DNA of 31,344 bases, taken from assembly GCA_050013635.1 (NCBI GenBank), contig JBEKEW010000003.1, positions 1 to 31,344 of the forward strand. Direction: 5' to 3'. Within the stretch, counting starts at the first letter, position 1. The number at the start of each line of letters is the position of its first letter. This stretch comes from Thermoplasmata archaeon. Lineage in GTDB: Archaea; Thermoplasmatota; Thermoplasmata; Lutacidiplasmatales; UBA184. A model generated the notes under the pieces. That model ran no database searches. It was not told the DNA's origin and saw only the letters and a program-made list of their open reading frames with translations. Positions 410-5,487 of the stretch are shown here, in pieces. A program made the position numbers and the translations under genes.

Positions 410-565
410 CCTCCCGCGGCTTTCTGGGGGAGTTCACGTCGCCGGGTCGCTCCTTTCTCGACGCCCGGGAGGACGAAGCGCGCCGAACGGAGCATGTAGA
501 ACTTCTCGGCAACGACCTCCCGCGGCGCTCCTCCGGTCCGATAGGAGCGGCCCCTTCCCACCGCT

Positions 566-573
566 CATATAGA
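566..573 (+). promoter_or_regulatory. Probable TATA box of tRNA-iMet
   Basis: CATATAGA, AT-rich island in GC-rich DNA about 25-30 nt upstream of tRNA base 1 (596). Confidence 0.45.
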
Positions 574-595: not shown

Positions 596-698
596 AGCGG
601 GGTAGGGTAGTCAGGAAAGCGGTCGGCGGTGCCGGCCGTCCTGAAATCCCGACGGGCTCATAACCCGTAGATCCATGGTTCAAATCCATGCCCCGCTA
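596..698 (+). tRNA. Initiator tRNA-Met (CAT), intron-containing; CCA not encoded
   Basis: Acceptor stem AGCGGGG(596-602)/CCCCGCT(691-697) with A1-U72; anticodon stem ACGGG/CCCGT with three consecutive G-C pairs; loop CTCATAA; T-arm CATGG-TTCAAAT-CCATG; discriminator A698. Removing 618-645 gives a 75-nt cloverleaf. Confidence 0.95.
618..645 (+). other. Non-canonical tRNA intron (28 nt) in D-loop, about position 20a/21
   Basis: Central 4-bp helix CAGG(612-615)/CCTG(640-643), two 3-nt AAA bulges (616-618, 644-646), intron hairpin GCGGTCGGC(619-627)/GCCGGCCGT(631-639). Confidence 0.87.
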
Positions 699-3247: not shown

Positions 3248-4453
3248 ATGAGCGAACCGGACTCCTCCGCACCCCCGCATGATGCGTTCGACCGAGTGAA
3301 CTTCCTCGAACTGAGGAACACCCAGCTCGCCGAGGCGATCAAACGCGTCGAGAGCGAACGGCACTACATGGAGTCGGAGATCCTCCGGCTCCAGCGGGAG
3401 GTCAAGCGGATGAAGACGGAGCTGGACCGGCTCCGATACCCTCCGCTCATCGTCGGCAGCGTGCGGGACGTTCTCACCGACGGCCGCGTGATCGTCAAGT
3501 CGTCGACCGGACCGGACTTCGTTGTCAACGCAGCGGAGACGGTCGAGCACACGAAGATGACGATCGGGAGCCGGGTCGCCCTCAACAAGCAGACCCTCGC
3601 GGTCATGGGGGTCCTACCGGCCTCCCTCGACCCGATCGTGACCGCGAGCGAGATCGTCGACAAGCCCAGCGTCACCTACGAGGATATCGGAGGACTCTCC
3701 GATCAGATCCGCGAGATCCGGGAAGCGGTGGAGTACCCGCTGCTGCGCTCGGAGCTGTACAAGCGAGTGGGCGTCGATCCCCCGAAGGGCGTGCTCCTGA
3801 TCGGATCCCCCGGCACGGGGAAGACGATGATCGCGAAAGCGGTCGCCCACCACACGAACGCGACGTTCGTTCGACTGGTCGGTAGCGAGCTCGTTCAGAA
3901 GTACATCGGGGAGGGGGCCCGTCTCGTGCGGGAGCTGTTCCAGATGGCCCGAGAGAAGGCCCCGACGATCATCTTCATCGACGAGGTCGACTCGATCGGG
4001 GCCAAGCGCCTCGAGGTCGCGACCAGCGGGGACCGCGAGGTCCAGCGCACCCTGATGCAGCTGCTGGCCGAGATGGACGGGTTCGAGCCGCTCTCGAACG
4101 TCAAGATCATCGCGGCGACCAACCGGCCGGACATCCTGGACGAAGCCCTCCTGCGGCCCGGCCGATTCGACCGGATCATCGAGGTGCCCATTCCCGCGGC
4201 CGGCGGGCGTGCCGAGATCTTCAAGATCCATTCGCGCCCGATGACGATGCACGAGCCGATCGATTTCGAGGTGCTCGCCGCCCGATGCGAGGGCGCCACC
4301 GGGGCCGACATCAAGGCGATTTGCACCGAGGCCGGGATGTGGGCGATCCGCGAAGAGCGGGACCAGGTGACCGCGGTCGACTTCGACCGGGCGATCGAGA
4401 AGGTCATCGGGGAAGAGGAACTCCGCAAGGAGTCCGTCACGATGTTCGCCTAA
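3248..4453 (+). CDS. pan: Proteasome-activating nucleotidase (AAA+)
   Basis: N-terminal coiled coil, OB domain (PPLIVG), Walker A GSPGTGKT, ELVQKYIGEGAR, Walker B IIFIDE, LLRPGRFDR, C-terminal MFA. Start moved to ATG3248 (401 aa). Confidence 0.97.
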   Translation: MSEPDSSAPPHDAFDRVNFLELRNTQLAEAIKRVESERHYMESEILRLQREVKRMKTELDRLRYPPLIVGSVRDVLTDGRVIVKSSTGPDFVVNAAETVEHTKMTIGSRVALNKQTLAVMGVLPASLDPIVTASEIVDKPSVTYEDIGGLSDQIREIREAVEYPLLRSELYKRVGVDPPKGVLLIGSPGTGKTMIAKAVAHHTNATFVRLVGSELVQKYIGEGARLVRELFQMAREKAPTIIFIDEVDSIGAKRLEVATSGDREVQRTLMQLLAEMDGFEPLSNVKIIAATNRPDILDEALLRPGRFDRIIEVPIPAAGGRAEIFKIHSRPMTMHEPIDFEVLAARCEGATGADIKAICTEAGMWAIREERDQVTAVDFDRAIEKVIGEEELRKESVTMFA

Positions 4454-5487
4454 GGGCGGACCGACGATCGGATCTCCGACTCCGCCGGCGCGGGTTCTAG
4501 GGCGGTCCGTCCTGGAGCGCGACCCGGGCCGCGATCCGCGGACCGGTGGTCGTCGAGAGGTCGAGCACGTAGGGCCGCGATCCGCGGACCGGTGGTCGTC
4601 GAGAGGTCGAGCACGTATCCCGGCTGTCCGGGGCGGAAGACGACCGGCCGGTCGGCGGTGAACCGGACGCTCTGTGCATCGCGCGGCCCGACCGATACCG
4701 GGACGACCTGCAGCCCGATGGCGAGATGCATCTGGGCCCCCTCGCCCCACGCGGACCGGTGGTATCGGCACGGGAAGAGCGCGGACCCGTTCAACGAGGC
4801 GGACGCGTGCAGCGCCCCTTCCGGAGCGAGGATCTGCCCGCGCGCGAGCTCGTCGGGATCGACCCCCTTCAGCGCGACGCCGACCCGATCGCCGTTCGAT
4901 GCGTGGGTGACCTCCACGTCGTGGACCTGGATCGACCGGATCTCGACGATCTTCGGGGTCGGCCACAGTCGGAGCTTGTCATGCGCATGGAGCGTCCCCG
5001 CCCGTACCACGCCCAGGGCGACCGCCCCGACCCCCTTGACCGGGAACGCGTGATCGATCGGAACCGTGACCGGGCCGTCGCCCGGGCGGGGAAGCCAGGC
5101 ATCGACGAGCTGGCGGAGCGCGGGGTAGTCGAGCGGTTGCTCCGGCGCCGTCTCGAGCCGGGTCCCCTTGAGGAGGCGGGCGACCTCCTCCGCGCCCACG
5201 CTCGGGCCCAACACGATCGTCGTCGGGACGTCGTAGAGGTCGGCCACGGCGATCGTCTCGGCGATCGGACGCGAGAGTTGATCGATCACCAATAGGCAGC
5301 GGTCGGCCATCCCGAGGGCGATGAGGAGCGGAGGGAGCTTTTCGGGAAAGTTGGTCGGTTCCACGCACGTGATCGCGTGACCTTCGGTCACGAGGTTGTA
5401 CAGCGTGACGTCCGATCCCGTCCCCTTCTTCCCGAACTCCTTCGCGACGTCTCGGGCCCCGATGGTCGCGATCGTGACCGCCGGCAT
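4450..5487 (-). CDS. Archaeal SelB-like elongation-factor family protein (aSelBL), degenerate G-domain; C-terminus altered by a tandem duplication
   Basis: Start ATG5487 with GGAGGT RBS (5491-5496). N-terminal EFGKKGTGSDVTLY without a canonical GTPase P-loop; EF-Tu domain II motifs IDHAFPVKGVGAVALGVV, IRSIQVHD, GDRVGVALKG, RGQIL. Confidence 0.85.
   Translation of the reverse strand: MPAVTIATIGARDVAKEFGKKGTGSDVTLYNLVTEGHAITCVEPTNFPEKLPPLLIALGMADRCLLVIDQLSRPIAETIAVADLYDVPTTIVLGPSVGAEEVARLLKGTRLETAPEQPLDYPALRQLVDAWLPRPGDGPVTVPIDHAFPVKGVGAVALGVVRAGTLHAHDKLRLWPTPKIVEIRSIQVHDVEVTHASNGDRVGVALKGVDPDELARGQILAPEGALHASASLNGSALFPCRYHRSAWGEGAQMHLAIGLQVVPVSVGPRDAQSVRFTADRPVVFRPGQPGYVLDLSTTTGPRIAALRARPLDDHRSADRGPGRAPGRTALEPAPAESEIRSSVRP
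4526..4617. repeat. Perfect 2 x 46-bp tandem duplication
   Basis: GGGCCGCGATCCGCGGACCGGTGGTCGTCGAGAGGTCGAGCACGTA at 4526-4571 and 4572-4617. Confidence 0.97.

What the first reader, a model, noticed from the sequence alone, without database searches (positions are those of the whole stretch)
596..698. Initiator tRNA-Met interrupted by a non-canonical D-loop intron with a relaxed BHB motif
The essential initiator tRNA (A1-U72, three G-C pairs in the anticodon stem) has a 28-nt insert at about 20a/21 rather than 37/38. It folds into a 4-bp central helix (CAGG/CCUG), two AAA bulges and a 9-bp intron stem, but the exon-side outer helix is poorly formed (U611-U647 mismatch), making it a relaxed HBh'-type substrate. 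Established knowledge: non-canonical intron positions and relaxed motifs are mainly associated with Crenarchaeota, Thaumarchaeota and DPANN and with broad-specificity (alpha-beta)2 or epsilon2 splicing endonucleases, whereas characterised Thermoplasma has an alpha2 enzyme preferring strict BHB. If the host is Thermoplasmata, it may have a broadened or acquired EndA. Standard annotation could miss this tRNA.
Basis: partly seen in the sequence, partly recalled or inferred. Interest (0 to 1): 0.75.

Follow-up and report, generated by a model that had tools for sequence, protein, structure and literature searches.

The report
Initiator tRNA gene with D-loop intron
This is the only start-codon (initiator) methionine tRNA gene found in a peat-soil Thermoplasmata archaeon; it is interrupted in its D-loop by a 28-base protein-spliced intron of a known kind, yet the organism's single splicing enzyme is the ordinary type that the literature says handles such misplaced, loosely folded introns poorly.

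Summary
Observation confirmed. Window 596-698 (+) is an archaeal initiator tRNA-Met (A1-U72, three G-C pairs, CAU at 659-661) with a 28-nt insert (618-645) at 20a/21. It has a CAGG/CCUG helix, two AAA bulges and a 9-bp stem. No outer helix forms, so the motif is relaxed (HBh').

It behaves as a spliced intron:
- Exons are almost invariant in 30 of 33 sampled genomes of the genus, and the intron stem covaries.
- Intron-less orthologues in sister genera and families match the predicted spliced product.
- No second initiator gene turned up, even in a 100%-complete relative.
- A TATA box sits at a fixed distance upstream.

The host belongs to the Lutacidiplasmatales/UBA184 group of Thermoplasmata. 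Its one endA gene is a vertically inherited two-unit alpha'2 enzyme. It has no beta subunit and none of the L1/L2/L3 loops linked to broad specificity, so "acquired EndA" is not supported.

Non-canonical introns are routine here: ten T-loop introns and a second D-loop intron in this genome. The same D-loop site is occupied in 7 of 30 sampled Thermoplasmata families.

Splicing itself was not shown; metatranscriptome contigs held only the unspliced form.

This scan has reported the same interrupted gene before, on other genomes.

The parts
596..698 (+). Initiator tRNA-Met gene (pre-tRNA body, 103 nt; CCA not encoded)
   Evidence: Sequence; fold; covariance model R1 scores it 127 bits. ARAGORN calls tRNA-Met(CAU) on the in-silico spliced product.
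596..617 (+). 5' exon (positions 1-20a)
   Evidence: Nearly invariant in the 21 genus sequences of alignment A1 (only position 9 varies, A or G). Continues directly into the 3' exon in intron-less orthologues.
618..645 (+). 28-nt intron. Boundaries follow the BHB rule; because both bulges are AAA, any 28-nt excision in register gives the same product
   Evidence: Variable in sequence (26-32 nt in the genus) while both exons stay almost fixed. Absent from orthologues in genera g15 and g17 and families f2, f3, f4 and f20.
646..698 (+). 3' exon (positions 21-73)
   Evidence: Nearly invariant in the genus sequences of A1; one sequence differs at a single position.
612..615 (+). 5' strand of the central 4-bp helix H (CAGG; D-loop positions 17-19)
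   Evidence: Pairs with 640-643. Invariant in the genus, apart from one sequence where one pair is broken. Covaries as UAGG/CCUA in families f23 and f25.
640..643 (+). 3' strand of helix H (CCUG; intron)
616..618 (+). 5' bulge AAA; predicted cut between 617 and 618
   Evidence: A true 3-nt bulge between H and the intron stem. AAA in all 22 aligned sequences.
644..646 (+). 3' 'bulge' AAA; predicted cut between 645 and 646. It is really one side of a 3x3 or 4x4 internal loop facing A609-U611
   Evidence: outer helix 0 bp.
619..639 (+). Intron hairpin h' (9 bp, 3-nt loop)
   Evidence: Six of 9 pairs have compensatory changes.
659..661 (+). Anticodon CAT
565..572 (+). TATA-like box TCATATAG, 24 to 31 nt upstream of tRNA position 1
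   Evidence: A TATA-like octamer at the same distance in all 21 genus loci, inside otherwise divergent G+C-rich flanks.

Best explanation
Window 596-698 is the functional, and apparently only, initiator tRNA-Met gene of this archaeon. It is transcribed from a TATA-box promoter as a 103-nt precursor. Its D-loop carries a 28-nt bulge-helix-bulge intron of the relaxed HBh' class at position 20a/21. The resident homodimeric alpha'2 splicing endonuclease cuts in the two AAA stretches (617|618 and 645|646). RtcB joins the exons to give a 75-nt tRNA with D-loop AGUCAGGAAA, and CCA is added afterwards.

Shown: the anatomy, its conservation and covariation, the match to intron-less orthologues, the lack of a second gene in the genomes searched, and the type of EndA present.

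Inferred: cleavage and ligation themselves, and that the alpha'2 enzyme does the job without help.
For: Anatomy and fold.

Conservation:
- The same interrupted gene is in 30 of 33 sampled genomes of the genus. The other three show no initiator gene at all, and none has an intron-less copy.
- Exons are almost invariant while the intron varies, with 6 of 9 stem pairs compensated; 0 of 500 shuffles reach the observed values.

Splice junction:
- Intron-less 75-nt genes of g15, g17, f3, f4 and f20 and 74-nt genes of f2 read ...YAGG + 2-3 nt + AUCCC, as the predicted spliced product does. The f3 (G026) and f4 genes carry the identical GGAAAUCCC junction.
- Helix H covaries between exon and intron (CAGG/CCUG versus UAGG/CCUA) across families.

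Single copy and expression:
- Besides the 126-127-bit hit, model R1 finds only elongator-type hits of about 55 bits in the own genome and in a 100%-complete relative. An intron-less initiator scores about 83 bits.
- A TATA box is conserved at -31 to -24.

Splicing machinery:
- EndA is one ORF with two PF01974 units.
- The catalytic triad Y292/H300/K331 is in the C-terminal unit only.
- The homodimer model passes: score 0.83, best of 3 controls 0.01. That mark was reached by 21 of 30 proteins solved as pairs of one chain and by 0 of 23 solved as single chains. Similar dimers are solved, so this shows likeness rather than binding.
- RtcB is present.

A second HBh' D-loop intron, in tRNA-Arg(GCG), is kept in 58 of 60 genomes of the family, so this class of substrate is evidently tolerated.
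Against: No spliced RNA was seen. Contigs from four metatranscriptomes hold only the intron-bearing form, which may be precursor or DNA carry-over, and show no joint.

The 3' cut site lies in an internal loop, not a bulge. An alpha'2 enzyme (A. fulgidus) failed to remove the closest known analogue in vitro (PMC5829648).

The own genome is only 82.6% complete, so absence of a second gene rests mainly on relatives.
Confidence: 0.85

Rival explanations
1. The intron is spliced, but only because this lineage's alpha'2 EndA has gained broader specificity through point changes or through its full-length N-terminal unit, or because an accessory factor presents the 3' site. This is a rival on mechanism, not on identity.
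For: A. fulgidus alpha'2 EndA did not remove the M. kandleri HBh' intron at 20b/21. Reviews assign relaxed motifs to (alpha-beta)2, epsilon2 or loop-bearing enzymes. The N-terminal unit here matches almost the whole Pfam catalytic-domain model at 47.9 bits. By contrast, the units of Archaeoglobus, Thermoplasma and haloarchaea are reported as carrying a deletion, and A. fulgidus shows gaps there.
Against: No indel or obvious block separates EndA of families with D-loop introns from families without them. No L1, L2 or L3 insert is present. No second endonuclease-family gene was found. Nothing here measures specificity.
Confidence: 0.45
2. An ordinary alpha'2 EndA suffices. The well-formed 5' half (bulge, 4-bp helix, long intron stem) docks the dimer. 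The 3' AAA, held 4 bp away next to the D-stem, is cut well enough in vivo at moderate temperature. Nothing is enzymatically special.
For: The enzyme looks entirely conventional. The same site is occupied in seven Thermoplasmata families with similar enzymes. A. fulgidus EndA can process a bulge-helix-loop motif in a full-length pre-tRNA. In the M. kandleri test the failed reactions left a partly cut product, read by the authors as cleavage mostly at the proper bulge.
Against: That published mature-domain-assisted activity is for position 37/38, not the D-loop. A. fulgidus EndA gave no clear product on the D-loop analogue.
Confidence: 0.35
3. The gene is a decaying or silent copy, and the working initiator tRNA is encoded elsewhere, unassembled.
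For: The own assembly is 82.6% complete in 207 contigs. tRNA genes are often missing from metagenome bins.
Against: Exons are almost identical across 21 species-level genomes while flanks and intron diverge. The stem shows compensatory changes. No other initiator was found in relatives that are 93-100% complete, some in as few as 5-20 contigs. The promoter box is conserved.
Confidence: 0.04
4. The insert is never removed, and the tRNA works with an enlarged D-loop hairpin.
For: Only the unspliced form was seen in RNA libraries.
Against: The insert separates G18-G19 from A21 and would disturb the D/T-loop elbow. What is conserved is exactly the endonuclease geometry (4-bp helix, 3-nt A-rich bulges), not the hairpin sequence. 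Standard RNA-seq rarely captures mature tRNA, and contigs show presence, not absence.
Confidence: 0.02

Closest known systems
Methanopyrus kandleri pre-tRNA-Glu(UUC) intron at 20b/21 (Kaneta et al. 2018, PMC5829648)
   Same: A euryarchaeal D-loop intron at practically the same position. It is the relaxed HBh' class, and the host's EndA lacks a specificity loop.
   Different: There the enzyme is an (alpha-beta)2 heterotetramer; here it is alpha'2. There it is a single exceptional intron in an elongator tRNA that also has a canonical intron. Here it sits in the only initiator gene found, in a genome with at least a dozen non-canonical introns. The hosts are a hyperthermophile and a peat-soil organism.
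Aeropyrum pernix pre-tRNA-Thr(UGU) D-loop intron and the multi-intron tRNAs of Thermoproteales
   Same: BHB or relaxed-BHB introns outside the anticodon loop that are removed by EndA. The introns vary while the exons stay fixed.
   Different: Those hosts have (alpha-beta)2 EndA with the Crenarchaea-specific loop and its lysine. That loop is absent here.
ARMAN-2 (Ca. Micrarchaeum) non-canonical introns with epsilon2 EndA (PMC3239211, PMC3488258)
   Same: An uncultured archaeon with many non-canonical introns.
   Different: Its EndA is a three-unit epsilon2 enzyme with the ASL loop. Here it is a two-unit alpha'2 enzyme with no such loop.
Alpha'2 EndA of Archaeoglobus fulgidus (1RLV/2GJW) and Thermoplasma acidophilum (2OHC)
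   Same: Same architecture: a structural N-terminal unit, a catalytic C-terminal unit, and a homodimer.
   Different: The enzyme here is about 354 aa against 305 and 289 aa. Part of the extra length lies in the N-terminal unit. The solved enzymes are listed as narrow in specificity.

Membership tests
Archaeal initiator tRNA-Met | A1-U72 pair, three consecutive G-C pairs at the bottom of the anticodon stem, CAU anticodon | tested here: met
   The same features hold in all homologues.
Archaeal initiator tRNA-Met | One gene per genome, distinct from the elongator Met and Ile2 CAU tRNAs | tested here: met
   The own genome has two other CAU tRNAs (C18, and C1 with a canonical intron). Model R1 finds one initiator per genome.
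Archaeal BHB-type tRNA intron, strict hBHBh' | 4-bp central helix flanked by two 3-nt bulges on opposite strands | tested here: inconclusive
   Helix H is 4/4 and the 5' bulge is clean. The 3' AAA faces three or four unpaired D-loop bases, so it is an internal loop rather than a bulge.
Archaeal BHB-type tRNA intron, strict hBHBh' | Outer exon-exon helix h adjoining the 3' bulge | tested here: not met
   U611 faces U647, so the outer helix is 0 bp. The ten T-loop introns in the same genome have the 5-bp T-stem in this role (two of them read by hand).
Relaxed HBh' intron | Central helix H, one proper bulge and an inner intron helix h', with the second site in a loop | tested here: met
   H is 4 bp, the 5' bulge is AAA and h' is 9 bp. 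h' covaries.
Relaxed HBh' intron | Excision restores a standard cloverleaf that matches intron-less orthologues | tested here: met
Relaxed HBh' intron | Actually cleaved by EndA and ligated in the cell | tested here: inconclusive
   Only unspliced contigs were found in four metatranscriptomes, with no joint.
Alpha'2 (homodimeric two-unit) EndA | One polypeptide with two tandem endonuclease units | tested here: met
   Two PF01974 and two PF02778 stretches in one 354-aa ORF. The same holds in 118 of 121 genomes of the order.
Alpha'2 (homodimeric two-unit) EndA | Tyr-His-Lys triad in the C-terminal unit only | tested here: met
   Y292, H300 and K331 align with the M. jannaschii triad. By my reading of the alignment, the N-terminal unit has Leu and no His at the matching places.
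Alpha'2 (homodimeric two-unit) EndA | Forms a homodimer | tested here: met
   Model support only: score 0.83, best of 3 controls 0.01. The mark was reached by 21 of 30 proteins solved as pairs of one chain and 0 of 23 solved as single chains. Solved relatives exist, so this shows likeness.
Broad-specificity EndA ((alpha-beta)2, epsilon2 or loop-bearing alpha4) | Separate beta subunit or a three-unit protomer | tested here: not met
   The only PF01974 matches are the two in one ORF, even at E <= 1. The same holds across the order.
Broad-specificity EndA ((alpha-beta)2, epsilon2 or loop-bearing alpha4) | L1 (CSL) or L2 (ASL) insert before the L-x-LSL-x-E motif, or an L3 insert in the C-terminal domain | tested here: not met
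   The catalytic unit (residues 189-354) aligns with M. jannaschii EndA residues 6-171 with gaps of only 1-2 residues. S. tokodaii, P. aerophilum and A. pernix chains carry 11-19 more residues before that motif, and N. equitans has 7 more in the C-terminal part.

The most novel reading that the evidence does not exclude
The roughly 355-aa alpha'2 EndA of non-Thermoplasmatales Thermoplasmata has no specificity loop and no beta subunit, yet is intrinsically able to excise relaxed HBh' introns. On this reading, this branch of Euryarchaeota underwent its own expansion of D-loop and T-loop introns, including in the initiator tRNA. The accepted rule that relaxed, misplaced introns need an (alpha-beta)2, epsilon2 or loop-bearing enzyme would then be incomplete.
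Probability: 0.5. Interest if true: 0.7.

Novelty: new member of a known kind. Interest (0 to 1): 0.58.

Why it matters
Archaeal tRNA splicing has been explained for twenty years by co-evolution. Enzymes of the alpha4 and alpha'2 types are said to go with a few strict introns at position 37/38. (Alpha-beta)2, epsilon2 or loop-bearing enzymes are said to go with many relaxed, misplaced introns (PMC4090602, PMC4033280, PMC5829648, PMC6379350).

Here an essential gene depends on removal of a relaxed D-loop intron in an organism whose only EndA is a loop-less alpha'2. The pattern extends to about a third of this genome's recognised tRNA genes and to several families of the class.

This gives a clean biochemical test with one gene and one 103-nt substrate. 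It also has a practical side: tRNA finders without a non-canonical-intron step miss or mislabel these genes, so tRNA counts used to grade such metagenome bins can come out too low.

Tried and rejected
- **Standard finders.** ARAGORN default found nothing, and with introns allowed it gave a false Phe. Rfam at its gathering score found nothing on the window.
- **First deletion scan.** It demanded a perfect 4-bp helix, drowned in flank artefacts and missed the T-loop introns. A relaxed version with helix scoring replaced it.
- **RNA evidence.** Two run searches and one read-laying gave unspliced contigs only and no joint. This neither supports nor refutes splicing. One contig with a contiguous D-loop belongs to another organism: it has a GGAG D-loop and AT-rich flanks.
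- **EndA insert linked to D-loop introns.** None was seen in 21 aligned enzymes.
- **Acquired EndA.** Rejected. Identity falls smoothly from genus to family to class.
- **Integration cassette at the tRNA 3' end** (a lead from earlier scan notes). No repeat of the tRNA 3' end occurs in the window.
- **Initiator genes of genera g16 and g18.** They were not detected by R1, and a 14-nt anticodon-arm pattern hit only coding sequence. Left open.
- **RF00005 on five relatives as an intron census.** The listing was cut before the low-scoring hits, so only total counts were usable.
- **Not done.** A covariance model for T-loop introns, and tRNAscan-SE, which is not available here.

Full report
**1. What is in the sequence**

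Window 596-698 on the + strand reads as an archaeal initiator tRNA-Met.
- The acceptor stem is AGCGGGG with CCCCGCU, giving A1-U72, and the discriminator is A698.
- The anticodon arm is 652-668, with three G-C pairs next to the loop and CAU at 659-661.
- The T arm is 674-690.
- CCA is not encoded.

Between G19-A20-A20a and A21 lies a 28-nt insert.
- Helix H is C612-G615 with C640-G643.
- A616-A618 is a true bulge between H and a 9-bp hairpin (619-627 with 631-639).
- A644-A646 follows H on the other strand but faces A609-U611, and U611 meets U647.

So this is not a strict hBHBh' motif.

The minimum-free-energy fold is exactly this, at -54 kcal/mol with z = -5.0. That fold pairs U611 with A644.

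Because both bulges are AAA, every 28-nt excision in register gives the same 75-nt product.

Finders without a non-canonical-intron step fail on the gene.

**2. Why it is an intron and not noise**

A DNA search of relatives found the same interrupted gene in 22 of 24 genomes of the genus. Eight of nine further genomes had it. That makes 30 of 33. The other three show no initiator gene at all, and none has an intron-less copy.

In the 22-sequence alignment A1 the exons are almost invariant, while the insert varies in sequence and length, 26-32 nt in the genus.

On the named structure, 6 of the 9 hairpin pairs show changes on both sides. In total 97% of cells are paired, against 35-48% when the partners are slid. 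None of 500 shuffles reaches the observed values.

Sister genera g15 and g17 and families f2, f3, f4 and f20 have uninterrupted 74-75-nt genes. Their D-loops read as the predicted spliced product does. The f3 (G026) and f4 genes read ...AGGAAAUCCCG, the same junction as predicted.

Across families, helix H itself covaries between an exon base and an intron base: CAGG/CCUG against UAGG/CCUA.

**3. Whether it is the working gene**

Model R1 scores this gene at 127 bits and intron-less initiators at about 83 bits. In the own genome and in relatives, including a 100%-complete one and several in as few as 5-20 contigs, the next hits are elongator tRNAs at about 55 bits.

All 21 genus loci keep a TATA-like octamer 24-31 nt upstream, inside otherwise divergent flanks. 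In this window it is TCATATAG at 565-572.

RtcB ligase is present in the genome.

**4. The host and its enzyme**

The genome is a 1.47-Mb bin with 68% G+C, estimated 82.6% complete. It comes from peat.

Record titles of close EndA relatives read "Thermoplasmata archaeon". They include UBA184 and a Ca. Lutacidiplasmatales isolate. That order is the former Terrestrial Miscellaneous Euryarchaeota Group (PMC9287336).

The genome has one endA gene: a 354-aa ORF with two endonuclease units. The same arrangement is found in 118 of 121 genomes of the order.

The C-terminal unit aligns with M. jannaschii EndA over 166 residues, with gaps of only 1-2 residues. It keeps the triad Y292, H300, K331.

Crenarchaeal chains carry 11-19 extra residues just before the L-x-LSL-x-E motif, where the CSL and ASL loops sit. 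The N. equitans chain has 7 extra in the C-terminal part. This protein has neither.

The N-terminal unit lacks the Tyr and His.

A homodimer model passes: score 0.83, best of 3 controls 0.01. The mark was reached by 21 of 30 proteins solved as pairs of one chain and by 0 of 23 solved as single chains. Because similar dimers are solved, this shows likeness only.

Identity to other Thermoplasmata EndA falls smoothly with distance: 63-88% in the genus, 46-59% in the family, about 30-49% in other families. An alignment of 21 enzymes shows no indel that tracks D-loop introns.

The enzyme is therefore inherited, not acquired, and looks ordinary.

The solved 289-aa Thermoplasma enzyme seems to represent a shortened form. 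ORFs of 289-327 aa occur in only three sampled families (f15, f20, f21). For most of those genomes only the catalytic domain matched the query.

**5. Non-canonical introns are routine here**

In the own genome I found T-loop (59/60) introns in ten tRNAs: Asn GUU, Arg UCU, Arg UCG, Ser CGA, Ser GCU, Ser GGA, Ala GGC, Asp GUC, Glu CUC and Gln CUG.
- In all ten the 5-bp T-stem serves as the outer helix.
- Both bulges are 3 nt.
- The central helix has 3 or 4 pairs.

So they have strict geometry at a non-standard place (Arg UCG and Ser GGA were read by hand after mis-set them).

A second D-loop intron lies in tRNA-Arg(GCG) at 17/17a. It is again HBh' with no outer helix. It is kept in 58 of 60 genomes from all seven genera of the family, with near-invariant exons and a covarying hairpin.

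Adding three to five canonical introns gives roughly 17 of about 40 recognised tRNA genes interrupted, 12 of them at non-standard places. This count is approximate.

**6. Distribution**

In 151 genomes of the class, the D-loop site of the initiator gene is occupied in seven of 30 sampled families: f1 (this genus only), f5, f11, f22, f23, f24 and f25.

Other families carry an anticodon-loop intron or a T-loop intron (f16), both D-loop and T-loop introns (f24), or none.

In 125 genomes from other classes of the phylum, no hit scored above the intron-less level. The D-loop form was therefore not found outside the class in those sampled.

**7. RNA**

Four metatranscriptomes hold contigs of the intron-bearing form. 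One piece starts at 610 next to an adapter and runs 61 nt past the 3' end, so it is a primary transcript or DNA. No joint was found.

Contigs drop rare forms, and mature tRNA is poorly captured by standard libraries. This leaves splicing unshown but not refuted.

**8. Comparison with what is known**

Reviews state that euryarchaeal alpha4 and alpha'2 enzymes serve few, strict, canonical introns. They assign relaxed motifs to (alpha-beta)2, epsilon2 or loop-bearing enzymes.

The closest analogue is the HBh' intron at 20b/21 of M. kandleri tRNA-Glu. A. fulgidus alpha'2 EndA did not remove it in vitro, and the loop-less native (alpha-beta)2 enzyme removed it only slowly.

I found no paper describing non-canonical tRNA introns in Thermoplasmatota. 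The paper that named the order ran tRNAscan-SE but does not mention introns.

**9. Verdict**

The gene and its intron are real, and the intron is of a known kind. What is unexpected is the pairing with a plain alpha'2 enzyme in a lineage full of misplaced introns.

Whether that enzyme is broadened (0.45) or simply adequate (0.35) cannot be settled without biochemistry.

**10. Earlier notes of this scan**

I read these after my own analysis. They report the same interrupted initiator gene on other genomes and similar intron loads in Thermoplasmata. They are unchecked AI notes and are not counted as evidence. One lead from them, the tRNA acting as an integration site, was tested and not found here.

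Noticed in passing
window 4526-4617: A perfect 46-nt tandem duplication (2 x 46 nt, 100% identical) lies near the 3' end of the minus-strand ORF that ends at 4450, which a first-reader note calls SelB-like. A relative (G002) has one copy. Because 46 is not a multiple of 3, the duplication replaces the last roughly 10 residues with about 43 others. It is either a recent frameshifting duplication or an assembly artefact.
   Followed up: partly
own genome outside the window: L183 (C18:6400-6525), L184 (C37:1700-1835), C177:2483-2532, C19:14768-14815, C37:7439-7486, C2:334-383, C63:3568-3615, C84:5912-5958, C6:11825-11871, C15:5557-5607 (C2 and C63 ranges approximate, set by hand): Ten tRNA genes carry an intron at T-loop position 59/60. 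All have the T-stem as outer helix, UUCR pairing with the intron's 3' end, and two 3-nt bulges. Rfam's tRNA model scores them at only about 17-37 bits.
   Followed up: partly
L182 (G000:C29:10235-10370); relatives L185-L214: tRNA-Arg(GCG) has a 33-nt HBh' intron at D-loop position 17/17a, with central helix GUAG/CUAC that uses D-stem bases. It is conserved in 58 of 60 genomes across all seven genera of the family.
   Followed up: yes
L142-L161, L123-L134: Initiator tRNA genes across the class carry introns at different places: the anticodon loop (f9, f10, f12, f15, f17, f18, f19, f30), the T-loop (f16), D-loop plus T-loop (f24), and 167-169-nt genes (f27, f5) that probably have several introns. 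An interrupted initiator gene seems more the rule than the exception outside the families with cultured members.
   Followed up: partly
G043 (genus g16, 97% complete) and G051 (genus g18, 93% complete): No initiator tRNA was detected, either with model R1 or with a 14-nt anticodon-arm pattern. The gene may be unassembled or more heavily disrupted there.
   Followed up: partly
EndA loci L162-L181: Two size classes of EndA occur in the class: about 350-385 aa in most families, and 289-327 aa in f20, f15 and f21. For most genomes of the short class only the catalytic domain matched the query. The solved Thermoplasma enzyme (289 aa) is of the short size.
   Followed up: partly
G000:C184:3-854 and C117:4184-4597: RtcB is split over the ends of two contigs (profile positions 1-281 and 292-426). 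This is most likely assembly fragmentation, not a split gene.
   Followed up: no
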